64,000 nt of DNA from Naegleria gruberi (lineage: Eukaryota): assembly GCA_000004985.1 (NCBI GenBank), contig GG738907.1. The stretch is one strand, 5' to 3'. A program made the position numbers and the translations under genes. This document shows, in pieces, positions 47,757 to 64,000 of this stretch. Under the pieces are notes generated by a model, which was not told the DNA's origin, made no database searches, and saw nothing but the letters and a program-made list of their open reading frames with translations. The first letter of the stretch is position 1. The number at the start of each line of letters is the position of its first letter.

Positions 47757-50294
47757 ATGCCACTTTATGAAAAAGAACAAAAGAAAAAAATGGCACAAGT
47801 TGAAACGTTAGATTCGTGTAGTTCAATTCAAGAGCCAATAGTGCCAGAAAGTCAGCAAGAGACTTGTCTCATAAGTGCTGACAATGATTCTAAACTTGAA
47901 GAATCTCAAGTTCATCTCTCCGAAATATCAACATCATCTTCACCTTCAGTTCACCAACAACCCGAAAATCCAAACTCATCCCTATTTGAATTGTCAAATT
48001 ACTTTGGTATTGGCCATTTATTGGATGAAACACAAGAGTATTCATATGAAACTTGTCAATTTACAAGTTGTTCTCAACAATGTCATGAATTTTTATTTAA
48101 ATTCCATCACGGATTACTCTCTTCGAAGCCTAATTCATTGATGATAGATTTCGATTGGGAAGATCACATTGATGTAGTTTCCGTCATCCTTCAGCTTGTA
48201 AACCAATCTGAAGAAAAGTCGATAGACATGGCTTCTACACAGTTAAAAGCAAAAATTTATGTAAAATGTGCTGAATCAACTGTTGATTTGCAGATCAATG
48301 CAATTTCAGGCATTCCTTTGACAAGTTGGATTGGAAAATTGGTCTTGCCGATTGTGAAATTTTCTCACTTGCCTTCAACACTTTCAAACTTGAAAGAATT
48401 CGTTCCACTGAGCGAAGAATTGAGTGAGGAGATGAAAATGGTATTCTTCTCTAGTTATCCTTCACTATTCAGACAATATTTCAATCATTTTCCAAGTGTT
48501 AATGATCAGAAAAATGCAAACATGGTATTATCCGATTTTTTGATTGGTTTATTATGGATTGGTTGTTTGAATATTGAAAAATCCAATGAAATTTCATCCA
48601 GAGTGAGGACTGTCATGCAAAGATCGATAGGATGTCTTCAGTATTGGATTAGTAATTATGGATTTTGTTTTGATGTGCTGAGTAGCAATTTTGTCAAATC
48701 ATCCCTTCAACAAATTGAAGAATTATTGAACAAGATTGAAAAGAATGAGTGGAAAGATGAATTAAGTGGAGTTTTGAAATTAATTTCAGAAGATTCATTG
48801 AATCAACATGCATTTCCATTATCTTTCAATGATTGGTCGGAATATCTTTCAAACAAGAGGAAGGAGTTGGGTCTTGATGAAGAGGAAGAAGAAAATGCAG
48901 AAGAAGAAACTCAAGAAGCAGATGAAGAAGAGGAGTATACTCAAGTTGAAGAGGAAGGAGAGGACGAAGATGAAGAGGAAGAGGAGGAAGAAGTAGATGT
49001 CTCTGAAATGTTCAACAAGCTATCCTCCTTCATTCTCTCCCAACATGATTTGCAAGCCACTGAAATTCCTGAAGTATTTGCAAATCAAGAGGAAATTCTG
49101 CTTGCTAATTTACCAAATGACATTGACAGTGTTTATTCTATCGTTTTGGATATAATGAGAAAGTCTAATCCCGAAAAGGCATCATTTTTTGAGGAGTTAG
49201 CACAACCTGATTTGTATCTTCATTTCATAATGCAATGGTCTCCTCTTGAAATTGCCAAGCAATTGACAAACTATGAGTTTACTAATCATTTTGAACAATG
49301 CAAGACTCATGACTTTTTCTCAACAGGCGCACTCAGTAATAATCAAAGTAATTTGGATCAAATGATTGACAGATTTAATTGGATGTCATTGTGGATTGTT
49401 TACACCATTCTAAGACAAGAAAGTTTGGAGAATCGTGTGAAAATTATTGGATATTTTGTTCAAGTCATGTTTTTCACATTATCCTTACAAAATTATCAAA
49501 ATACCATGTGTATCATTAGTGCATTCCACAATAGTTGCATCTCTAAATTGGCAACAGCTTGGAAGGAGGTTAGCGAATTGAGAGATCAGACCAATGCTTT
49601 TACTTATCATCAATTTCTTGAAGGAGTCAATGATTTACTCTCACTTCAAAAGAAATTTTTCAAATTGAAATATCACATTATTCAAAATATTGAAACAAGT
49701 TTGGAAAACAATGAAGAAGGCACTCAATTCTCCTGCATTCCATATGTTGGTGTTTGGCTTGGTGAAATTTCCAGTATTGAAACTTATTATAATGACTTTG
49801 TTTCACCACCAACTCATCTCAAACAACATCACAGTCACATTTCAAATTCCAACACGACTCTTCACACCCACCAATATCCTCATCACTATCTGTTCAACTA
49901 TGAAAAGAAGAGATTAATCACCAAACCTCTCAAGGAAATTCAAACATTCCAAAAGCTTTCCTTGCACACTGAAAATGAAAACATTTCACTCTTCAAATCT
50001 GTACCATTACTGTTACATGTCCTGTCAACTAATGAAATGATCAAGGCGCTTCCTCTCGATCCATCAAATAGTTCTAATAGTCCAAGCTCAAATGGACCAA
50101 CGAATGAGAGTGCTCTTTCTGTAAATTCTCAACATTCTGATTTGAGTCCAGCACTTTCGAATATTTCATTGAGCTCGAATGGATCTGGTTTCTTCCAAGG
50201 TCAATCGACAGTCATGTTAAAATCCGTAACAAATAGTGAATATATGAAGAAGATATTCCGTGAAATGACAAAGGAAATTCTTCAAAAGGAATAA
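47757..50294 (+). CDS. Ras guanine-nucleotide exchange factor (CDC25-homology RasGEF domain)
   Basis: RasGEF catalytic-domain blocks: LEIAKQLTNYEF, NRVKIIGYFVQV, NTMCIISAFHNSCISKL, IPYVGVWLGEISSIE; poly-Glu/Asp acidic tract (48880..49000); 845 aa. Confidence 0.75.
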   Translation: MPLYEKEQKKKMAQVETLDSCSSIQEPIVPESQQETCLISADNDSKLEESQVHLSEISTSSSPSVHQQPENPNSSLFELSNYFGIGHLLDETQEYSYETCQFTSCSQQCHEFLFKFHHGLLSSKPNSLMIDFDWEDHIDVVSVILQLVNQSEEKSIDMASTQLKAKIYVKCAESTVDLQINAISGIPLTSWIGKLVLPIVKFSHLPSTLSNLKEFVPLSEELSEEMKMVFFSSYPSLFRQYFNHFPSVNDQKNANMVLSDFLIGLLWIGCLNIEKSNEISSRVRTVMQRSIGCLQYWISNYGFCFDVLSSNFVKSSLQQIEELLNKIEKNEWKDELSGVLKLISEDSLNQHAFPLSFNDWSEYLSNKRKELGLDEEEEENAEEETQEADEEEEYTQVEEEGEDEDEEEEEEEVDVSEMFNKLSSFILSQHDLQATEIPEVFANQEEILLANLPNDIDSVYSIVLDIMRKSNPEKASFFEELAQPDLYLHFIMQWSPLEIAKQLTNYEFTNHFEQCKTHDFFSTGALSNNQSNLDQMIDRFNWMSLWIVYTILRQESLENRVKIIGYFVQVMFFTLSLQNYQNTMCIISAFHNSCISKLATAWKEVSELRDQTNAFTYHQFLEGVNDLLSLQKKFFKLKYHIIQNIETSLENNEEGTQFSCIPYVGVWLGEISSIETYYNDFVSPPTHLKQHHSHISNSNTTLHTHQYPHHYLFNYEKKRLITKPLKEIQTFQKLSLHTENENISLFKSVPLLLHVLSTNEMIKALPLDPSNSSNSPSSNGPTNESALSVNSQHSDLSPALSNISLSSNGSGFFQGQSTVMLKSVTNSEYMKKIFREMTKEILQKE

Positions 50295-53697: not shown

Positions 53698-54903
53698 TTA
53701 CAGGTTGGATCTTCTCTTGTTGTGCTCTCTCAAGCAAAACTCAATGGTTTCCCTTCCAATATTAATTTCTCCGCAATGAGCTTGTTCAAATCCTTCACAA
53801 CCTGGCGATGAATTAATTTCACAAATTTTGTAAACATTTTCATGATCGAGTAAAATGTCAACTCCTGAAATATCCAAATGACATTCCTTTGTGGTCAACC
53901 GTGCCAATCTTTCTAGCTCTTCATTCATTGGAAATTTTTCACACAAAGCTCCTTGATGAAAATTTGCTTTGAAATTTCCATTCGTTGATTTTCTCATCAT
54001 TGAGCCAACTACCATATCTCCCATTACAATAATTCGTAAATCCTTTCCACTCGAATTGGAAATAAACTCTTGCAATATCCAATTATTTGAGGTTGAAATT
54101 ATTTCATTTAAATCTTGAAGTTGATTTCTGTCCTTAATTAGAATAATTCCCTTTCCTTGACTTCCATTCGTCTTTTTCAAAACCTTTGGATAGCCACCTA
54201 GTTTCTGCTCAATCCATTCGAATCTAGTGAGTGGAAATGTTGCAGCAATTGTTTTTGGAATGGAAATTCTCTTTCGTGCTAGAGTTTGCATTGTAACAAG
54301 TTTATCCTTTGAAATTTCCATTCCTTTTGAAGAATTCAAAACCAAACACTGTTCGAAACTTTCCAAAAATCGTAAAAGAGCCATTTCACAATACGTAATT
54401 TTAGCTCCACATCTATTAATGATGACATTTGGCAATTCCACTATTTTCCCATCATATTCCACTTGATTTTGCAACAAGTCAGTTTCTGAATCAGCACACA
54501 CTGAAAACAATCCAGTTACCTTACTCGAAACCAACACACCAGCTCTCCATCCTTCCTCAATAATCCTTCGTCGAGTATAATTCAATTCCTGATTGGTTGA
54601 AATAATCCAAACTCTCAATTTTGCTTTTTTATATCCAAAACCTTTAATCATTTGCAAGCCGTGCTCTTCCGAGTTGTACAATGTATCATCCTGTGCATTC
54701 AAATAAATAATCATCTTGGAATGGGATGAAGAGGATGAAGAGGAAATATATTTTGGTTTTAATTGAAATGATAAAGCATATTCAGGAATTGTAATTTCTC
54801 TTGAGGATGACAATTCCGATGCAGATGATGATGATGATGAGGTGTAGATCTCTTTCGTCATTGGTTCTGCCTTAATTGTTACTAATTTTCCATTGGTTAG
54901 CAA
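53698..54903 (-). CDS. ATP-grasp ligase of the RimK family (alpha-L-glutamate ligase/beta-citrylglutamate synthase-like)
   Basis: ATP-grasp core: GGYPKVLKKTNGSQGKGIILIKD, WILQEFISNSSGKDLRIIVMG, NFHQGA, ICEINSSPG. Confidence 0.7.
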   Translation of the reverse strand: MLTNGKLVTIKAEPMTKEIYTSSSSSSASELSSSREITIPEYALSFQLKPKYISSSSSSSHSKMIIYLNAQDDTLYNSEEHGLQMIKGFGYKKAKLRVWIISTNQELNYTRRRIIEEGWRAGVLVSSKVTGLFSVCADSETDLLQNQVEYDGKIVELPNVIINRCGAKITYCEMALLRFLESFEQCLVLNSSKGMEISKDKLVTMQTLARKRISIPKTIAATFPLTRFEWIEQKLGGYPKVLKKTNGSQGKGIILIKDRNQLQDLNEIISTSNNWILQEFISNSSGKDLRIIVMGDMVVGSMMRKSTNGNFKANFHQGALCEKFPMNEELERLARLTTKECHLDISGVDILLDHENVYKICEINSSPGCEGFEQAHCGEINIGRETIEFCLREHNKRRSNL

Positions 54904-55229
54904 GCAATCCGATTGGATTATATTCTATTTGATGAATATCTTGCTGTGATGATAATTCTACCGTGCAACTTTTATAAATTTCCTTCATTTCTCCTTAATA
55001 TAATTGTTTGTAATTTTTTTATAAAATTGTTGTTTTTTCAAAAGTATAATTTCAGTGGTCATTTCATTAATTTATTATCAATCAGCTGTAGGTATATGAT
55101 TGTTCTTCTTGTAAATATTAAGTACATTGAATCTTGCTCTTTGTAATATTAAGGTTTCACATACAAGAACAATCAAAGGAACTACTATATAGCAATCATT
55201 GTTAATTTATCTCGATTTATTGGGCGGAG

Positions 55230-55350
55230 GATTGATAGCCCAATCACAATAAGCAATGGCCTAGGTAGTTAGATTGAAATTGAACGTTACACCTGTGTTT
55301 GGCCAATCGAAATAGGCAATGACATCGCTAACATCACCATGGTATCATTC
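55230..55350 (-). pseudogene. degenerate relic copies (two) of the 3' exon of the neighbouring GPI-anchored protein gene
   Basis: minus-strand translation gives DVSDVIAYFDWPN and AIAYCDWAI, matching AIVGDAIAYFDWANRQ encoded at ~56440-56490; nucleotide similarity visible (gcccaatcacaataagcaatggc / ggccaatcgaaataggcaatgacatcgc vs tgcccaatcaaagtaggcaatagcatcacc). Confidence 0.4.
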
Positions 55351-55615
55351 AATACAAACCAACTTATAAAAATTGTTGTAATTTTCACAGTAGTACGTAT
55401 TTACAGTACTGTAAAAACACCTTAAAAACACTTTAAAAAAAATGGCATCACACCTTTTGGTCATCACCATATGATAACACGCAATTCTTTTGAATATCCT
55501 TAAGTGTGGGATCATCAGCACTCGAATAATACCACAAGCTGAAATAATTTCAGAGACTTTTAAGTAGGTGTTAAATTTAATTTAAGTATTAATCATCAAC
55601 AAGAAACTAAGTTAA

Positions 55616-56079
55616 CAATTCTATCAATCGGAAAAGTTGAGAAAAGTTCGGAGATGGATTGCATTTGTTATTGGTGCTGCCATGATGATTGCTGCTGGAA
55701 CACAGTATGCATTTTCATCGATTAGTCCTAATTAGTCCTTCTTTGAAAAAGTAAGTTGTGTGAGAAAGATCAAATATTTAGTAATAATTATTTTAATTAT
55801 TAATCATTGGAATATTAAAATAGACGATTTGATTTGACTCAAACTGAGGTGAATACTATTGGAACAGCAGCAAATTTGGGAACTAATTTCAGTTTTCTCT
55901 TTTCTTTGGTGAATGATGTTCTTGGAGCTCGTTCTTGTAGTTTTGTTTCTGGTGCCTTCTTGTTTGGATCTTATTTTCTGATGGCATTGACAGTTTCTGG
56001 AGCTATTCCAGGAGCAGAGAATTATATTGCACTTTCTGCATTCATGTTTATTATGGGTAACAGTAGTGGTGGAGCTTAG
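55616..56079 (+). pseudogene. MFS transporter (nodulin-like/MFS_1 N-terminus) pseudogene: frameshifting 10-bp tandem duplication in exon 1, one intron, premature stop after exon 2
   Basis: RWIAFVIGAAMMIAAGTQYAFSSISP then stop; removing one copy of the duplicated attagtccta restores ...YAFSSISPSLKK|GTAAGT intron (55753..55833)|DLDLTQTEVNTIGTAANLGTNFSF... typical of nodulin-like MFS N-termini; ends with TAG after ...FMFIMGNSSGGA and no further exons before the next gene. Confidence 0.5.
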
Positions 56080-56265
56080 ACAAAGAACCTACTGCCACTC
56101 ATACCACCTTGTCCGAACATTGGTTTGTGTTGCCAGCACTGTGGCATTCTGATATGGCTAAGGGATATCTACATATTCAGAGGACCTTATCTTGAATAAG
56201 ATGGTAATCCTTCATTGAACTTATTATTGATAATAATGTAATTTAATTTCTATTTTTTAGTGTAA

Positions 56266-57478
56266 TTAGAGTTGGAAGATTAAGAGGATAGAGAAAACGA
56301 GTACCATGATCCATGAGCTTCCCTTAGCAAGGAATGGTTGAGCATTACTGGTGGCAGTAACATTGAGATTAGTGAATGTGGCTAAACCATATGCAGTATC
56401 CCAAGCCTTGACGGTACACCCACACGTACCGTTCATCTGTCTATTTGCCCAATCAAAGTAGGCAATAGCATCACCTACAATGGCGTGAACAGCATTATTC
56501 TTGACATCAGTATATTGCAAGTTGACAGCTGCATACTTGACATAGGTGGCAGCTGTCAATTCAGTCTTGATGAAAGTGGCATAATTAGTTCCATCATATG
56601 CTGTTATATTTTAAATGAATGGATTGTTATAATTATTATAATATTTCACATGAAAAGATGATGATTGGAATATTTCACATGAAAAAATTGATTATAATTT
56701 TGCCAATTAATAATTTAAAACAACTTGATATACTTACCACCAACTTTGATACCAGTTTGATTCAATTGGTAGATATCATTAAAGACCTTGTTTGGTTCCA
56801 ATCCAGTTCTGATCCATCCCTTTGAAGCTCCTCCAAAAGAACATTGAAAGTGAACATCCTTAACTCTATTGTCGACATCAGGACGAGTATTAGCAGTGAC
56901 CATGTCGCCTGTAAAATATTCAAATATTATAAATTTGAATAAATTTACATAAAATTTCAATTAAATGTCAATTTTGATTTTCAAACTTACATTGATTAGT
57001 TGAAACAGCAAGTTTCAAAGTTTCAAAGAAACCCAAAGCAGTAGTGTTGAATCTGATAATATTAGTTTGATAATTGCTTCCATAGTGTTCATTGATCTTT
57101 CTGACAACAGATTGAGCCAAATAGGTCTTGGTTGATAACCATGGTTCAATAGTACCAGTTTCCCTATTAAATGTAAAATTTTAACAAGATATTGATTCAA
57201 ATCAATTGAAATACATACCAACACATGTTTAAAGCAGTTCTTCCAACGAATGGATCCTTTGCAGGCCATTTAACAGTACCTGCACATGTTGGAACGTTGA
57301 AATACATATTCTTCGAATAGTAGGCAATCCATGCAGTGTCAGTTGTCAAATCTTGAACAGCAGCATCCAAAGCATCAGAAACAGCTTGAGTGATGGATGC
57401 TTGGCAGTGGACTTGAGTAGCAAACAAGATGGCAGTTGTTGCAATTAAGAGAATGAGGATAGAAGAAGTACTTTTCAT
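56266..57478 (-). CDS. secreted, probably GPI-anchored cell-surface protein (312 aa); CDS complement(join(56266..56600,56738..56908,56991..57163,57219..57478))
   Basis: signal peptide MKSTSSILILLIATTAILFATQVHC; Cys-containing ectodomain; C-terminal small-residue omega region followed by hydrophobic tail GSSWIMVLVFSILLIFQL; three introns (55, 82, 137 bp) with GTATGT/GTAAGT donors; exons sum to 939 nt in frame. Confidence 0.55.
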
Positions 57479-58634: not shown

Positions 58635-61600
58635 ATGCCACCAAAATATGTCATTCAACAGCAAAAATTGAAACAACAGGCAGTGTCTAATCAATCACCA
58701 CAAGCAAATTCTAATGGTTTATTTGTTCAACTGGGTGTGTTACCACAAACCAATCCACAACCACAACCAACTTTAGTTGATTTACCTCCTCTTGTTGTTC
58801 CCACCAACAGTATCATTACTCCGTCCACACCAAATGATCAATCATCTACACCACTGTCAGCTGTTTCAACATCATCCATAAGTTTGCAAGCATCATCAAC
58901 ACCAACTAGTTCATCACCTCCTGCAGCCAAACCAGCAACAAAGAACGAAACTAAAAAACCAAAAGAGAAAGACAAGAAAGAAAAGGACAAGAAGGAAAAA
59001 AAAGAAACGAAGGATAAGAAAGAAAAGAAAGAAAAGAAGGAAAAGAAAGAAAAAAAGGAGAAGGAAGAGAAGGACAAGAAGAGAAAAAAGGTTCCAGAAA
59101 AGTCTTCTGAAAAAAGTAAAAAGAAGAAATCCGATGCTTCTACTCCAACAATCAACACAACATCAATTACCAGTAGTAGTGCAACTCCAACAGTACCATC
59201 TCCACAAAAGGTTGTAAAAGATGTTGAAATGACAGATGTCTTAACAAAGGAAGAAGTGATCAAAGCAGTGTTTGAAAATATTCCAAAACAAGTTATTGTT
59301 AAAATATCATGCTTGGATTCTAATGAGTTCCAAATTGATGAAGATATTGTATTAAGTGAAGAGGGAATTCCAATTGTTAACGGTATCAAATTGTTTCAAT
59401 CAATTGATTGGAACAATTCATTAGAAGATCATGAATCTTTCTTTAATTTCAACTGCTCACTTGTTCTTTCAACTATTGCCAGCGAAAGTTCAATAACAGT
59501 TCAAGAGTTTATTTATTCTATTGATGAGGCACTCAAATTGAATCAACAGTATTGTAAGGATTTGATGCGTTCTATGAATATTTCACACGAAAACTATTCC
59601 TTTGTGTACGATTTGCAAACCAACTCAATGAGCTTGATTTTCAAGAGAGAAACAGAAATAGTGGAACTTGCTGAAATGCTCTACGAAATCAAGACTATTA
59701 GAGAACTGAAGGAGGCTGAAGAAATGGAAGCCGAGGAGCAAATTATTACAGAGGGACCAATAGATGAAATTCAAGTCAATTTTGAGTTTAATTTTGAAAA
59801 GGAGGAGAAAAAGTATGTATTGGAGCTTCGTGCACCAAAGGCAAAATCGTACAAAACCATTGTCTCATCCCATCTCCAAATTGCTGAAAGTGATATTTTG
59901 AATTATGGTGAAATAGCTAGCGAAACACTGGTTGAAGCTAATGGTGTATTACCAACAAAACTGAAGGACGTTCTAGCTAGCAGAGTTGATGTAAAGGTAG
60001 TGCATCGTCATGTCTATTATGAGCAGAGAGTAATTTCATATGAAATATTCGAAAGAATGAAGGATATTATTGGACAGACTGAGTTTTCATTATATAATCA
60101 TCTCTGCTTTCTAGTTTGTACGCCTGATCAGAATACCTTATGGCATCAGACAATGGAAAGATTGGAAAGATCCAACATTCTGCCACCAAATACCAAACTT
60201 TCACATGTCTCAATCAAGTATAGAAAAGATCACGTCCAGATGTTCGAAAAATTCAGAGACAGAATTGCAAATGAAAAAGAAACTCTCTTCATTATAATTG
60301 TAGACGAGTGTCACTATGCAATTACCAAAGAAGGTGCTCACGACAAGATTGTTAATGATGAGCTCGCTCTTCAACACAATAACTTTTTCATTCTATTGGT
60401 GAGCGCAACCCCTTACAATGTCCTCTCAGTTGATAGTAATATTCCAGAAGTGTACAAACTCTTGAACAAACATGAAGATTTGGAAGTTGGTACAAAAATT
60501 CAAGTCACTTCCACGAATTATAACAAGATAGGATTTGGTGTATTGATCAAATATGAGGAGCAATATTCTACTCCTGTGTATGAGCTAATTGAATCCAAGG
60601 ATCAAAATATATTTTTGGAGGATGTAGAAGAAATAACTGGTAAGATTATACCACTCATGAGTGATGAATCTGAAGAGAAAAACTTTGAAATTGGAGAAGT
60701 TGTGGAATATGAAGAAGTTCCTGACACAAATCCTCAACCAACTTCTAAGAAATCAATCTCAACAGTCAGGTACATAGTCAAATCCCTAACAAGAAACTTG
60801 GAAATGGAAGTAAACCTCTCAGATAGAGATTTACGAAAGATTAATACTTCAAAAACTAGAAGAATTACAAATCAAGCAATTGGCAATATTCCAAAGGGAA
60901 AACTTGTTGAAATACATGATATAATCAAGTGGAGTGTAACTTTCAAACCAGTGAATAATGATCCAGCAGTATCCAAAGAATACACCCTCAATGATTGGCA
61001 ATTCAAACACCTTACCAATTACGAGGAGTACAATGTTGTGAGTTGGAGTGAAGTACAAAAGCGTACAACCTTGGAAAGAACAGAGCAAGATAATCAAACG
61101 AAGAAATACTTCAGCAAACAGGATTACATTAATTCTCTCAAGCAAGAAGAACCACTTGTTTTCAAAGATTTAGAATTTGAAAGAGTTCTGAAAAAGATCA
61201 AGGTTGCATCCAATACTTTAAGACCAATCATGTTAGCTATTGACTATCACTTTTGGATTATTACTGAAGGATTGAGAAGAAAACTATATGATGAAGTTAC
61301 TGCTTACAGACATTTTAATTCCATTGATGCTGCTCTTGATATTGAACCAAAGCACAAAATATACGTAGAGATTTGTAAATTAATTTATCTAGCTTACTTG
61401 TGTGCTAAACATTTGAAGATGGATGATGTTTTGGAGAATCAAGAATTTGATGACGAGGACGATGACTATGATATCCTTGATGAAACTAAAAAGACCGTAA
61501 AGAAAAAGAAGGAAGATTTGGAAAAGAAAATTCAACATTTACTGGAATATTTGAAAAATAAGTTCAAGCCAAAGAATCCTGAAAGATTATTTTCAGTTTT

Positions 61601-64000
61601 AATCGATCAAGAATCCCACACCAAAACTCTCATTAATACCTTGATAGAATCTGGTAAAATTCCAAATGATAACAGTGTGACGTTGAGAGGGAAAATGAAA
61701 ATATTGAGAATTACAACTACAGATTTTGCCAACACTGTTTTCAAGCTATTGAGAAGTTCCATTTCCAAAGTAGCAGCAAGTGGCTACATTTCACCAGATA
61801 TTCTCATAGACACTGGTGAAAATCCACTCACTCTCGATCAATTATCTTTCATCTCAAGAATGAAACTTGCTGAAAAAGTTCTGTCCACAGAAGATTATGA
61901 AGTTTTCCAAAGAAAACCAAGTAGACTTTCTAAGGAGAAAAAATCTTTGGAATACATTAATTTACACAATTTCCCTTGCATTCTAATCCTAGTTGCCAAA
62001 GGTCGTCAGGGAGATACCTTCCCTAATTCATTTGATTGCTTGGATATGAGAGCCAAAGGTGATTCCTTGCCAAATTACTCATCTTTTACACAAGAATTTG
62101 GTCGTTTGTGTAGATATGTGGACGATTCTGACAAGAAACCTATTGCACTTGTAACAGATTCAATTTATAAGGATTTATCCAAGTGCGGTGAAGGTGGAGC
62201 TACAATAGTAGGTAACACGAGCATGAAGCTTGATACCTACATGACCAAGATGAAAGGAAAGGAAGGTCAAAAGTATTGGTCCATTGTTACATTCTGTAGA
62301 AGAACCATGACTGCAGTTGATGGAAAAAAGCTTAAAGGTGAAAAGAAAAGTCCTCCTTCCTATGATTCAATGAGATCAGGTTCTGATAAGGATATCTCCT
62401 CAAAGAAAAATCACAAGAATCGTATGTTACTATTCGCCGAACCACAAGTAAGTATATTTATAGTATTTGTGAATATTAATAACAATGAAATCAGATTGGT
62501 AAAACAGACGCCTTTATTCACTGTTTGGAAAGAGTAATTCATGACATTGAGAAAAATAGAAGTGAGCGTATGGTTGATATTAATGAAGAAGAACAACCAT
62601 ACGATGATAATTCTATTGGTGTTGATGCTGTTATTTCTAACTATTCTGAATTGGAACGTGTATTACCTTACTTTGAAAATTTACAAGGTCAACAAAGGGG
62701 TGAATACAGCTCAATTTCTGCTGGAAAGTATGCCAAGCTTGTTTTGAAAACCAGAGAGGAAATATTCACTGAATTTACACCTGATAAGATCAGGTCTGTA
62801 CACAAATTATCAAGAATTGAATCTTTCATGACAAGTTCCAATCATTATTGGAGCAAGTTTATGGAAAAATTGAGTAGCCACAACTTTGATTTGGAAACAT
62901 TCCAGACATTTGATGGAAGATACAATGATATTTTACATCCTTCATCTGGATATAGAACGCTGAAGTTTGGAGAATCAAGTTCTACATCATCCTCGAAAGA
63001 AATTATTGAGAAAGTTGACTTATCCGAAAAGATGAATATTGGTCTTGCAGATATGAATTATAAGGATAAATTAATTACCATCCAATTGCAAAAGGTATTT
63101 GGATTGAAGATGGCCATGCTAGAGTCTTGCTTTCCAGGAGAAAAGCCATTAATTTCCATTCCATCAAGCAAAATGAATTGGTTTGTAATTTCATCAGATC
63201 AACAACATGTCACCAGATTCCTACTGCCTGATGATCCTAATGGTGTTAGAAGTTGGATATTTGTCCCTTCTTGGAATAGAAGTGCCTCAGGTTTATTCTA
63301 TCTGAAAAGTATGAAGGTTCCATATAGACAAGTAATTGTTGTAAGACATTCCGAATTCAAGTGCTATAGAAATGTTTTGGGAGGAGATTTTGTGATTATG
63401 AGCTTACCAGATATTGTGAATATGAAAGATCTTTTCAAACTATTCCCAATCCCAACAACTGAACAAAGAAAGTTACAGTACAATGAAATAGTGGATGGAA
63501 AAACTCTTATTGATTATGAAATGAAGGACGATGTTGGAGGAATTGGCTACTCTAGAATGGTCATTCAAATTCTTTCCTATGCATTTGGTTTGGAATTTAT
63601 TTGGATGATGGATGATAATTGCCATCACTTTGAGAAGGTTGAAAATGGTAGAAAGGTTCCTTGCTCATTGGCAGAAGTTTTAATTCCACTCGAGAAAATT
63701 GTCTATGATGAAAACAAACCAATTTCAACTATTACTCAGTCAATTCAACCAATATTTAAAAATAGACAAAATCCATCTCTGAATATCACTCTTAATGATA
63801 GTATAAGCAGTTTTACTCCTGGAAAGGATAAAATTGCCATGATTGGAGTTAGAAAGGATGGATACAGATATTCTTCATCGATCAACTACAAACCATTTGT
63901 AAACAGTTTCACCATTTGTTCTCTCTTCCTTTTGAATACAAAAAGAACAATTGATTCTGGTTGTATATTCCCATCAAGAAGATATTTAGAAGACATTGAA
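58635..64000 (+). CDS. very large multidomain protein (>1770 aa, 3' partial): Pro/Ser/Thr-rich N-terminus, KEKK charged repeat, SF2 DExH-helicase-like core (motif II DECH, motif III SAT), C-terminal GT8-like DxD glycosyltransferase-like module; CDS join(58635..62447,62495..>64000)
   Basis: LFIIIVDECHYAI followed 31 aa later by FFILLVSATPYN (canonical II-III spacing); KGRQGDTF candidate motif VI; no recognisable Walker A upstream; after a 47-bp GTAAGT..ATCAG intron the frame stays open to the window end and contains WIFVPSW ... IQILSYAFGLEFIWMMDDNCHHF resembling the GT8 LHCWSLTQYSKCVFMDAD block. Confidence 0.6.
58960..59100 (+). repeat. coding charged low-complexity repeat (KEKDKKEKKEKKEK...) within the large gene
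   Basis: aaagaaaag/aaggaaaag purine-rich reiteration translating to (K/E/D) repeats; mirrored spurious antisense ORF 58838..59389. Confidence 0.5.

What the first reader, a model, noticed from the sequence alone, without database searches (positions are those of the whole stretch)
55200..56100. Decayed zone: MFS transporter pseudogene with a 10-bp tandem duplication, plus relic exon copies of the neighbouring surface-protein gene
The plus strand encodes a nodulin-like MFS N-terminus (QYAFSSISP ... DLDLTQTEVNTIGTAANLG) with a recognisable GTAAGT intron. The sequence attagtccta is duplicated in tandem, which introduces a stop exactly where YAFSxxSPSLKK is expected, and the gene ends after exon 2. 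Just upstream (55230-55350, minus strand) two degenerate copies encode the AIAYFDW segment of the last exon of the GPI-anchored protein gene at 56266-57478. This looks like local duplication followed by decay.
Basis: seen in the sequence. Interest (0 to 1): 0.55.

Follow-up and report, generated by a model that had tools for sequence, protein, structure and literature searches.

The report
Dead MFS gene fragment in Naegleria
A 1.4-kb gap between two Naegleria gruberi genes holds a dead, very recent 467-bp copy of part of a transporter gene whose intact original lies on another scaffold, plus two tiny older scraps of a solute-binding-protein exon; this is ordinary genomic debris.

Summary
The observations hold. 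The window is Naegleria gruberi. 55616-56082 (+) encodes part of a nodulin-like MFS transporter (Pfam PF06813, E 6e-14). It keeps the GTAAGT intron. It carries a net 10-bp tandem duplication (55721-55739) that shifts the frame into a TAG, and a second TAG replaces a Tyr codon.

The interpretation needs correcting. This is not an old resident gene that decayed in place. N. gruberi has an intact 580-aa paralogue (P0100) on another scaffold. Once the 10 bp are removed, the fragment matches P0100 residues 63-190 at 126 of 128 positions, and no other exon occurs in the 64 kb. It is therefore a very young, DNA-level partial copy covering 22% of the gene, most likely non-functional from the moment it arrived.

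The two "AIAYFDW" relics (55298-55333 and 55235-55270, minus strand) are real. Peptides within one mismatch of the motif occur only there and in the neighbouring gene, and never in 100 shuffles. They are only about 27-36 nt long and much more diverged, so they look older.

The neighbour is a 312-aa protein with a signal peptide, an SBP_bac_3-like domain and a hydrophobic tail, from a heterolobosean family. Its public gene model is wrong: its last exon is the antisense of the MFS fragment.

No transposon signature was found. Interest is low.

The parts
55616..56082 (+). Partial DNA-level copy of the N. gruberi nodulin-like MFS transporter gene P0100 (residues 63-190 of 580). It comprises the 3' part of exon 1, intron 1 and most of exon 2.
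   Evidence: tblastn with P0100 matches 55616-55732 and 55822-56082; 126/128 aa are identical after removing 10 bp. Pfam Nodulin-like E 6.3e-14. 75% nt identity to the intact gene on L001.
55721..55739 (+). Tandem repeat ATTAGTCCT-A-ATTAGTCCT, a net 10-bp insertion that shifts the reading frame.
   Evidence: TRF period 10, 1.9 copies, 100% matches. A 10-nt gap at exactly this place in the alignment to L001.
55733..55735 (+). Premature TAG created by the frameshift (SSISPN*).
   Evidence: Translation. P0100 and L001 read SSISPSLKK here.
55751..55823 (+). Retained intron 1 (GTAAGT...TAG, 73 nt), at the same position and phase as in the L001 gene.
   Evidence: The spliced translation SLKK|RFDLTQ matches P0100.
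56077..56079 (+). TAG at the position of a Tyr codon (P0100 GGAYTA; L001 TAC).
55298..55333 (-). Relic 1 core, encoding DVIAYFDWPN. A weaker in-register similarity to the SBP family's last exon extends over about 55270-55413, with internal stops.
   Evidence: the repeat finder family D1, 78% identical to 56444-56479. tblastn E 0.004. Family HMM aligns it ungapped to profile positions 220-255, 6-8 bits. Motif count.
55235..55270 (-). Relic 2, encoding AIAYCDWA, 63 nt downstream of relic 1 in the same frame. Only about 24-27 nt are recognisable.
   Evidence: the repeat finder D1. SW score 26, aligned to the same gene segment. Motif count. Block-wise identities.
56444..56479 (-). The segment of exon 4 of the neighbouring gene that the relics resemble (GDAIAYFDWAN). 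It corresponds to the conserved VHAxIGDAxDLxxW stretch of the family.
56266..57478 (-). Intact neighbouring gene of 4 exons (57478-57219, 57163-56991, 56908-56738, 56600-56266), 312 aa. It has a signal peptide, an SBP_bac_3-like (type II periplasmic-binding-protein) domain and a C-terminal hydrophobic tail.
   Evidence: The family HMM built without this protein hits all four exons, E 1e-13 to 1e-26. Full-length alignment to N. lovaniensis P0004, 53% identity. Splice sites. SBP_bac_3 in 9 of 26 relatives. Profile against PDB E 1e-18.
55627..55697 (-). Antisense of the MFS fragment's exon 1, used as the last exon (AAIIMAAPITNAIHLRTFLNFSD) in the public N. gruberi gene model P0001.
   Evidence: P0001 also skips exon 2, and its C-terminus has no counterpart in the family.
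56083..56265 (.). Unassigned stretch between the end of the MFS fragment and the stop codon of the SBP-like gene. The first ~100 nt are 42-48% G+C. It is probably the 3' UTR of the SBP-like gene.
   Evidence: No significant similarity to the rest of the MFS protein, to Pfam or to anything else in the window. G+C profile.
53698..54861 (-). RimK-like ATP-grasp gene. Its start codon marks the left edge of the 1.4-kb intergenic stretch.
   Evidence: Pfam RimK E 1.3e-41. ORF list.

Best explanation
The 1.4-kb spacer between a RimK-like ATP-grasp gene and an SBP_bac_3-like gene of Naegleria gruberi holds two unrelated pieces of non-functional coding debris.

(a) A 467-bp piece of genomic DNA was copied from the intact nodulin-like MFS gene P0100, which lies on another scaffold. 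The copy includes intron 1, so it was made from DNA and not from mRNA. It lacks the first 62 codons and everything after residue 190, so it could never have encoded a transporter. The most likely origin is capture of an ectopic fragment during repair of a chromosome break; this step is inferred, not shown. A 9-nt repeat plus one filler base (net +10 bp) and a Tyr-to-stop change arose at or after insertion.

(b) Two scraps of about 27-36 nt lie 63 nt apart in one frame. They encode the IAYFDW hinge-region motif of the neighbouring gene's last exon. They are the last recognisable remains of a much older duplicated last exon or tandem paralogue of that gene.

Nothing indicates that either piece has a function.
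For: Shown:
- The fragment is a nodulin-like MFS piece.
- It matches N. gruberi P0100 at 126/128 residues over aa 63-190, against 78% identity over the 143-residue peptide aligned to the metagenomic homologue L001 and 73% to N. lovaniensis.
- P0100 is full-length with Nodulin-like, MFS_1 and NFD4_C domains and has orthologues in N. lovaniensis and Willaertia.
- No other exon of it occurs in the 64 kb.
- P0100's scaffold length differs from that of the neighbour's model.
- The intron is retained at a conserved position.
- The 10-bp insertion is confirmed both by TRF and by the alignment gap.
- The relic motif occurs only at the three places, with 0 hits in 100 shuffles. It is the top direct-repeat family in the region.
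- Among 99 family proteins the relic's best match is the neighbour itself.
- By my reading of the codons printed (not a tool output), about 7 of 11 differences in the relic cores are synonymous, which suggests earlier divergence under protein-level constraint.

Inferred:
- The break-repair capture mechanism.
- The order of events.
- The youth of the copy. Two non-synonymous or nonsense changes in 384 nt imply well under 1% divergence, compared with 4% between this strain and the metagenomic strain L003.
Against: - The DNA of the P0100 locus could not be retrieved. Nucleotide identity, exact breakpoints and junction microhomology are therefore unknown.
- A full-length young duplicate trimmed by two deletions cannot be excluded.
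- The relics are so short that profile-level support is weak (E 0.4; 6 bits). The second copy is not significant on its own at DNA level (45 of 300 shuffles).
- The 50%-clustered library may hide an N. gruberi paralogue that is closer to the relics than the neighbour is.
- No reads were available to rule out an assembly error at the 10-bp repeat.
Confidence: 0.62

Rival explanations
1. A complete MFS gene, either an old resident or a full-length duplicate, once sat here next to a tandem copy of the surface-protein gene. Both decayed in place through deletions and point mutations.
For: Two kinds of coding debris lie side by side in an unusually long spacer. The fragment carries disabling lesions.
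Against: Apart from three lesions, the MFS piece is 126/128 identical to P0100, so almost no time has passed. Losing 78% of a gene through two clean deletions in that time, with no other damage, is less parsimonious than inserting a fragment. No other exon remnant exists in 64 kb. The flanks show no MFS similarity. The SBP relics are far more diverged (41% aa identity), so the two did not decay together.
Confidence: 0.17
2. Transposon-mediated capture (Pack-MULE, Helitron or similar). The zone is a non-autonomous element that picked up pieces of an SBP-family gene and of the MFS gene.
For: Fragments of two unrelated genes lie on opposite strands within about 0.9 kb. A 22-nt, 82%-complementary inverted pair at 55061-55082 / 56226-56247 brackets them.
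Against: The inverted pair is AT-rich and no better than chance: 11-16% of equally spaced random window pairs reach the same score. I saw no target-site duplication in the flanking sequence. No other copy of any part of the zone occurs in the 64 kb. The two fragments differ greatly in age.
Confidence: 0.08
3. Assembly or cloning artefact. A chimeric clone or mis-joined reads placed a piece of the P0100 locus here, and the 10-bp repeat is a sequencing error.
For: Near identity to a gene elsewhere. The assembly is a draft. No reads could be examined.
Against: An internal 467-bp insert needs two chimeric junctions, with both flanks belonging to this locus. The piece differs from P0100 by F-to-V, Tyr-to-stop and the 10-bp repeat, which makes it a distinct sequence rather than a misplaced read. 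A perfect 9-nt direct repeat plus one base is not a typical base-calling error.
Confidence: 0.06
4. The fragment has been co-opted. The SBP-like gene uses the antisense of the MFS piece (55697-55627) as an alternative last exon, as in public model P0001, producing a secreted isoform without the hydrophobic tail.
For: P0001's C-terminus AAIIMAAPITNAIHLRTFLNFSD is exactly the antisense translation. GT (GTACGT, about 56431) and AG (TTCCAG, about 55698) sites are in place.
Against: P0001 also skips exon 2, which the family profile supports at E 1e-14. Its C-terminus has no counterpart in any of 25 relatives, all of which keep the CxC...FTT...hydrophobic-tail ending. By my knowledge of the genus, not tested here, the implied ~735-nt intron is much longer than usual for Naegleria. 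No transcript data were available.
Confidence: 0.05

Closest known systems
Duplicated (non-processed) pseudogene or gene fragment, including 'filler DNA' / templated insertions captured at repaired double-strand breaks
   Same: It is a DNA-level copy with the intron retained. It is truncated at both ends, sits in an intergenic spacer on another scaffold from its parent, is near-identical to the parent, and has a small tandem duplication of the kind left by slippage or end-joining.
   Different: The junctions could not be compared with the parent locus, so microhomology or other repair footprints are not shown. At 467 bp it is at the long end for simple filler DNA.
Nodulin-like / NFD4-type MFS transporters (Pfam PF06813 + PF07690 + PF23262), e.g. 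N. gruberi P0100, N. lovaniensis C9374_009839
   Same: The fragment encodes the first ~110 positions of the Nodulin-like domain, with the QYAFS and NTIGTAANLG motifs. Intron 1 is at the family's position.
   Different: Only 128 of 580 residues are present. There is no start codon. A frameshift and a stop interrupt it. The remaining transmembrane helices and the NFD4_C domain are absent.
Pack-MULE / Helitron gene-fragment capture
   Same: Fragments of unrelated genes lie juxtaposed in non-coding DNA.
   Different: No significant terminal inverted repeats, no target-site duplication, and no other copies in the window.
Bacterial family-3 solute-binding proteins (SBP_bac_3, PF00497) and the ligand-binding domains of ionotropic glutamate receptors, as relatives of the neighbouring gene and the source of the relics
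   Same: The family profile matches amino-acid-binding SBPs and cyclohexadienyl dehydratases (E 1e-18 to 1e-7) and, weakly, NMDA-receptor ligand-binding domains.
   Different: These are eukaryotic, intron-containing genes with a signal peptide and a C-terminal hydrophobic tail. No partner ABC transporter or channel domain is present. The N. gruberi protein on its own does not reach any Pfam threshold.

Membership tests
Nodulin-like MFS transporter (PF06813/PF07690) | Sequence match to the Nodulin-like N-terminal domain above Pfam's gathering score | tested here: met
   52.5 bits against a cutoff of 24.7, E 6.3e-14, profile positions 1-110 of 250
Nodulin-like MFS transporter (PF06813/PF07690) | Complete 12-helix MFS core with the C-terminal half (NFD4_C), as in P0100 | tested here: not met
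   Only P0100 aa 63-190 are present. There are no further exons in 64 kb. The flanks show no similarity.
Nodulin-like MFS transporter (PF06813/PF07690) | Uninterrupted reading frame with a start codon | tested here: not met
   A stop lies directly upstream of Q63 with no in-frame ATG. The frameshift produces TAG 55733-55735. A second TAG is at 56077-56079.
Non-processed (DNA-duplicated) pseudogene fragment | Parent gene identifiable elsewhere in the same genome with high identity | tested here: met
   P0100, named 'predicted protein [Naegleria gruberi]'; 126/128 aa identical
Non-processed (DNA-duplicated) pseudogene fragment | Introns of the parent retained | tested here: met
   A 73-nt GTAAGT...TAG intron lies at the conserved position, and the splice restores the P0100 sequence.
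Processed (retro-copied) pseudogene | Introns absent, poly(A) tail, copy starting near the transcript's 3' end | tested here: not met
   The intron is present. The copy is an internal 5'-proximal piece. No A-tract follows 56082.
Transposon-captured gene fragment (Pack-MULE-like) | Terminal inverted repeats beyond chance, and a target-site duplication | tested here: not met
   The best inverted repeat bracketing the zone is matched by 11-16% of random window pairs. No target-site duplication was seen in the sequence.
Transposon-captured gene fragment (Pack-MULE-like) | Multiple copies of the carrier element in the genome | tested here: inconclusive
   None in the 64-kb window. The rest of the N. 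gruberi genome was not available to search.
Relic of the SBP_bac_3-like gene family (neighbour's last exon) | Significant similarity to the neighbour's exon 4 in the right register, on the same strand | tested here: met
   tblastn E 0.004 and 7e-4 against 99 family proteins, with the neighbour as best hit. The motif occurs only at these sites, with 0 hits in 100 shuffles.
Relic of the SBP_bac_3-like gene family (neighbour's last exon) | Significant match to the family profile independent of the neighbour | tested here: inconclusive
   8.5 bits, E 0.4: the top non-gene window of 8,514 but not significant. The register is correct, at profile positions 220-255.
SBP_bac_3 (PF00497) for the neighbouring gene | Profile-level match to family-3 solute-binding proteins | tested here: met
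   9 of 26 relatives hit PF00497, best E 1e-7. Family profile against PDB: amino-acid-binding proteins at E 1e-18. The window protein alone gives no Pfam hit.
GPI-anchored surface protein (neighbouring gene) | N-terminal signal peptide plus a C-terminal hydrophobic GPI-attachment signal with an omega site | not tested
   Hydrophobic N- and C-termini are visible in the sequence and conserved across the family alignment. No signal-peptide or omega-site predictor was run.

The most novel reading that the evidence does not exclude
The captured MFS fragment may have been exonised in antisense. Under this reading the SBP-like gene splices from the GTACGT inside exon 4 (about 56431) to the TTCCAG acceptor at about 55698. 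It then ends in the antisense of the MFS piece, as public model P0001 proposes. That would swap the membrane-anchoring tail for a 23-residue soluble ending, giving a very young example of a new alternative 3' exon born from an ectopic gene fragment.
Probability: 0.05. Interest if true: 0.45.

Novelty: new member of a known kind. Interest (0 to 1): 0.14.

Why it matters
The main value is for annotation. The fragment should be flagged as a pseudogene piece of the P0100 transporter gene. The public model of the neighbouring gene (P0001) should be replaced by the 4-exon, 312-aa SBP_bac_3-like model, because the current one skips an exon and borrows the antisense of the fragment as its last exon.

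There is a minor biological point. This is a datable, strain-level example of ectopic gene-fragment insertion in a heterolobosean. It could be used to ask how Naegleria repairs chromosome breaks, provided the parent locus and sister strains are compared. It does not bear on any open question.

Tried and rejected
- **More MFS exons.** I searched for further MFS exons with the full-length L001 protein and with P0100 at E up to 50 and found none.
- **3' tail as decayed MFS sequence.** I tested whether 56083-56290 is decayed exon 2 or exon 3 by three-frame Smith-Waterman against L001 residues 169-523, with shuffles. Nothing was significant. An apparent 'PxxNxGL' and 'GLVxVAS' resemblance I had seen by eye was dropped.
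- **Synteny.** The N. lovaniensis locus of the closest SBP homologue (L002) shares only that gene with the window and has no MFS gene. L001 shares only the MFS piece. A weak L001 match at 48900-49043 falls in an acidic, glutamate-rich stretch and was dismissed as low-complexity.
- **Transposon hypothesis.** The inverted repeat 55061-55082 / 56226-56247 is not beyond chance, and the zone has no repeats elsewhere in the window.
- **Unassigned flanks.** Pfam scans of the open frames were empty. There were no Rfam families and no tRNAs in the window.
- **Parent locus DNA.** P0100 and P0001 are not on record in the contig collection.
- **Empty site in other strains.** Metagenome scans with the SBP-like and ATP-grasp proteins found nothing. 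L003, a contig from a 96%-identical strain, stops at window 56598, short of the zone. Exact-ORF look-ups were empty.
- **Spurious library hits.** P0079 and P0072 in the representative search are repetitive proteins with no real relation to the family (P0079's repeats share only a short T-rich motif with the query) and were ignored.
- **Literature.** Searches found nothing specific.
Full report
**Organism and setting**

The window has about 34% G+C and GTAAGT-type introns. The exons of the gene at 56266-57478 (minus strand) are identical to those of a protein named 'predicted protein [Naegleria gruberi]' (P0001). The window is therefore N. gruberi nuclear DNA.

The finding lies in a 1.4-kb spacer. 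On its left is the start codon of a RimK-like ATP-grasp gene (53698-54861, minus; Pfam RimK E 1.3e-41). On its right is the stop codon of the gene at 56266-57478 (minus).

**Checking the MFS observation**

- The plus strand from 55616 reads QFYQSEKLRKVRRWIAFVIGAAMMIAAGTQYAFSSISPN*.
- After a GTAAGT...TAG intron (55751-55823) it continues RFDLTQTEVNTIGTAANLG...GNSSGGA*.
- With 10 bp removed, the peptide hits Pfam Nodulin-like (PF06813) at E 6.3e-14, 52.5 bits, profile positions 1-110 of 250.
- Tandem Repeats Finder reports 55721-55739, period 10, 1.9 copies, 100% matches. In detail it is ATTAGTCCT, one A, then ATTAGTCCT.
- An intact homologue lies on metagenome contig L001. I derived four exons from its sequence, giving 523 aa. 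The DNA alignment to it shows one 10-nt gap at precisely that place.
- L001's 36-nt intron sits at the same position and phase as the window's intron.

The exceptions are a small misreading (RFDLTQ, not DLDLTQ) and the end point: homology ends inside exon 2, at 56082, not after it.

**What the MFS piece really is**

Compared with L001, the piece shows Ka of about 0.11 with saturated synonymous sites. Differences fall 23/8/67 by codon position. That pattern means it was copied from a gene under selection; it is not the pattern of long neutral decay.

A search with the full-length L001 protein then found three intact N. gruberi paralogues. The piece matches one of them, P0100 (580 aa, with Nodulin-like, MFS_1 and NFD4_C domains), at 126 of 128 residues over aa 63-190. 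The only differences are F to V and Tyr to stop. Over the 143-residue peptide aligned, identity is 78% to L001 and 73% to the N. lovaniensis orthologue.

P0100's longest contig is 312,004 bp, against 275,174 bp for P0001. No other part of P0100 is present in the 64 kb. Directly upstream of Q63 the frame has a stop and no ATG. Directly downstream of T190 the similarity ceases.

The piece is thus a very young DNA-level copy of 22% of a gene that is intact elsewhere. The retained intron shows it was copied from DNA. It is cut at both ends and could never have made a transporter.

I infer, but cannot show, that it was captured during repair of a chromosome break. The alternative of a full-length duplicate trimmed by two clean deletions is less parsimonious, given almost no other change. 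Transposon capture has no support: the only bracketing inverted repeat is matched by 11-16% of random window pairs, and nothing in the zone recurs in the window. An assembly chimera would need two false junctions and does not explain the three private differences.

**Checking the relics**

- The repeat finder puts the three 36-nt copies first among direct repeats of the region: 55235-55270, 55298-55333 and 56444-56479.
- Alignment statistics are modest. tblastn gives E 0.004 for relic 1. The DNA score of 33 is reached by 2 of 300 shuffles, and 26 by 45 of 300 for relic 2. blastn E-values against the whole window are 0.075 and 3.2.
- A profile of 25 relatives that excludes the window's own protein gives 8.5 bits, E 0.4. 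That is still the best of 8,514 windows outside the gene, and it is in the right register.
- The clearest test is a motif count. Peptides within one mismatch of AIAYFDW occur in the six-frame translation only at 56469-56449, 55323-55303 and 55260-55240, all on the minus strand. They occur 0 times in 100 dinucleotide shuffles of the window. The two relics are in one reading frame.

The relics are therefore real, but tiny. Similarity is confined to about 27-36 nt. Relic 1 has 41% protein identity to the neighbour over 39 residues, with internal stops.

Among 99 family proteins the neighbour is the best match, so a local origin is plausible. By my own reading of the codons, about 7 of 11 differences in the core are synonymous. 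Together with the low identity, this suggests an old paralogous exon that diverged under constraint before it was lost. It is not a recent copy, and these relics are certainly much older than the MFS fragment. One caveat: the library is clustered at 50% identity, so a closer N. gruberi paralogue could be hidden.

**The neighbouring gene**

An exhaustive search found 88 relatives, from N. lovaniensis, N. fowleri, N. gruberi and Willaertia magna.

- Full-length members are 305-340 aa, with hydrophobic N- and C-termini.
- 9 of 26 hit Pfam SBP_bac_3.
- The family profile matches solved amino-acid-binding periplasmic proteins and cyclohexadienyl dehydratases at E 1e-18.
- The profile built without the window's protein hits four separate exons. 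Splice sites give exons 57478-57219, 57163-56991, 56908-56738 and 56600-56266, for 312 aa.
- The AIAYFDW segment corresponds to the conserved VHAxIGDAxDLxxW stretch of the family. That conservation explains why it is the last part of a dead copy to remain recognisable.

The public model P0001 (203 aa) skips exon 2. It also splices from inside exon 4 to an acceptor on the antisense of the MFS fragment (55697-55627), so its 23 C-terminal residues are the reverse-strand translation of the pseudogene. No relative ends that way. I regard it as a mis-prediction, but transcript data would be needed to exclude a real minor isoform.

**What remains unassigned**

Three stretches have no detectable relatives: 55414-55615, 56083-56265 (the first ~100 nt at 42-48% G+C) and the AT-rich 54862-55230. 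The most economical reading is the 3' UTR of the SBP-like gene on the right and the ATP-grasp promoter on the left.

**Limits**

- The N. gruberi DNA of the P0100 locus was not retrievable.
- Metagenome scans for an empty site failed.
- A contig from a 96%-identical strain stops at 56598, short of the zone.
- No reads or transcripts could be examined.

**Verdict**

It is wrong on origin and age for the MFS piece, which is a young ectopic fragment of an intact gene rather than a decayed resident. This is an ordinary kind of genomic debris, and its practical consequence is a correction to two annotations. Interest is low.

Noticed in passing
window 56266-57478 (-) and 55627-55697 (-): The public N. 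gruberi gene model P0001 (203 aa) is wrong. It skips exon 2 (57163-56991), and its last 23 residues are the antisense translation of the MFS pseudogene fragment. A 4-exon, 312-aa model fits all 25 aligned relatives.
   Followed up: yes
window 56266-57478 (-); relatives P0004, P0005, P0012, P0097 and others: A heterolobosean family (88 clusters at 50% identity; Naegleria gruberi, N. lovaniensis, N. fowleri, Willaertia magna) of small proteins with a signal peptide, a bacterial-type family-3 solute-binding domain and a C-terminal hydrophobic tail. They have no attached transporter or channel domain. Their ligand and role are unknown.
   Followed up: partly
L001 (ENA ERZ27315067, k141_1710963) 295-1985: A metagenome contig carries an intact 4-exon, 523-aa nodulin-like MFS gene. 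It is 70% identical to N. lovaniensis P0099 and 67% to N. gruberi P0100, so it comes from an unsampled heterolobosean. The prokaryotic gene caller split it into three ORFs (P0003, P0002 and one more).
   Followed up: partly
L003 (ENA ERZ929261, k127_50391) = window 57978-56598: A 1.4-kb metagenome contig is 96% identical to the window, with 37 gap positions. A close N. gruberi strain is therefore present in public environmental data and could provide an 'empty site' test if more of it were assembled.
   Followed up: partly
window 58635-62537 (+): A single 1,300-aa ORF with a strong match to the circularly permuted SF2 helicase of GREB1 proteins (PF20692, E 1.9e-130). It is preceded by a lysine/glutamate-rich low-complexity N-terminus.
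   Followed up: no
window 56629-56686: A 29-nt tandem pair (83% identical, ...ATATTTCACATGAAAA...) inside intron 3 of the SBP-like gene. It shows that small tandem duplications also occur in nearby non-coding DNA.
   Followed up: no
window 56083-56200: A ~115-nt stretch of 42-48% G+C, against a local background of about 27-33%. It lies directly after the MFS fragment and has open frames of 37-39 codons but no detectable relatives. It could be another unrecognised coding scrap or part of the neighbour's 3' UTR.
   Followed up: partly
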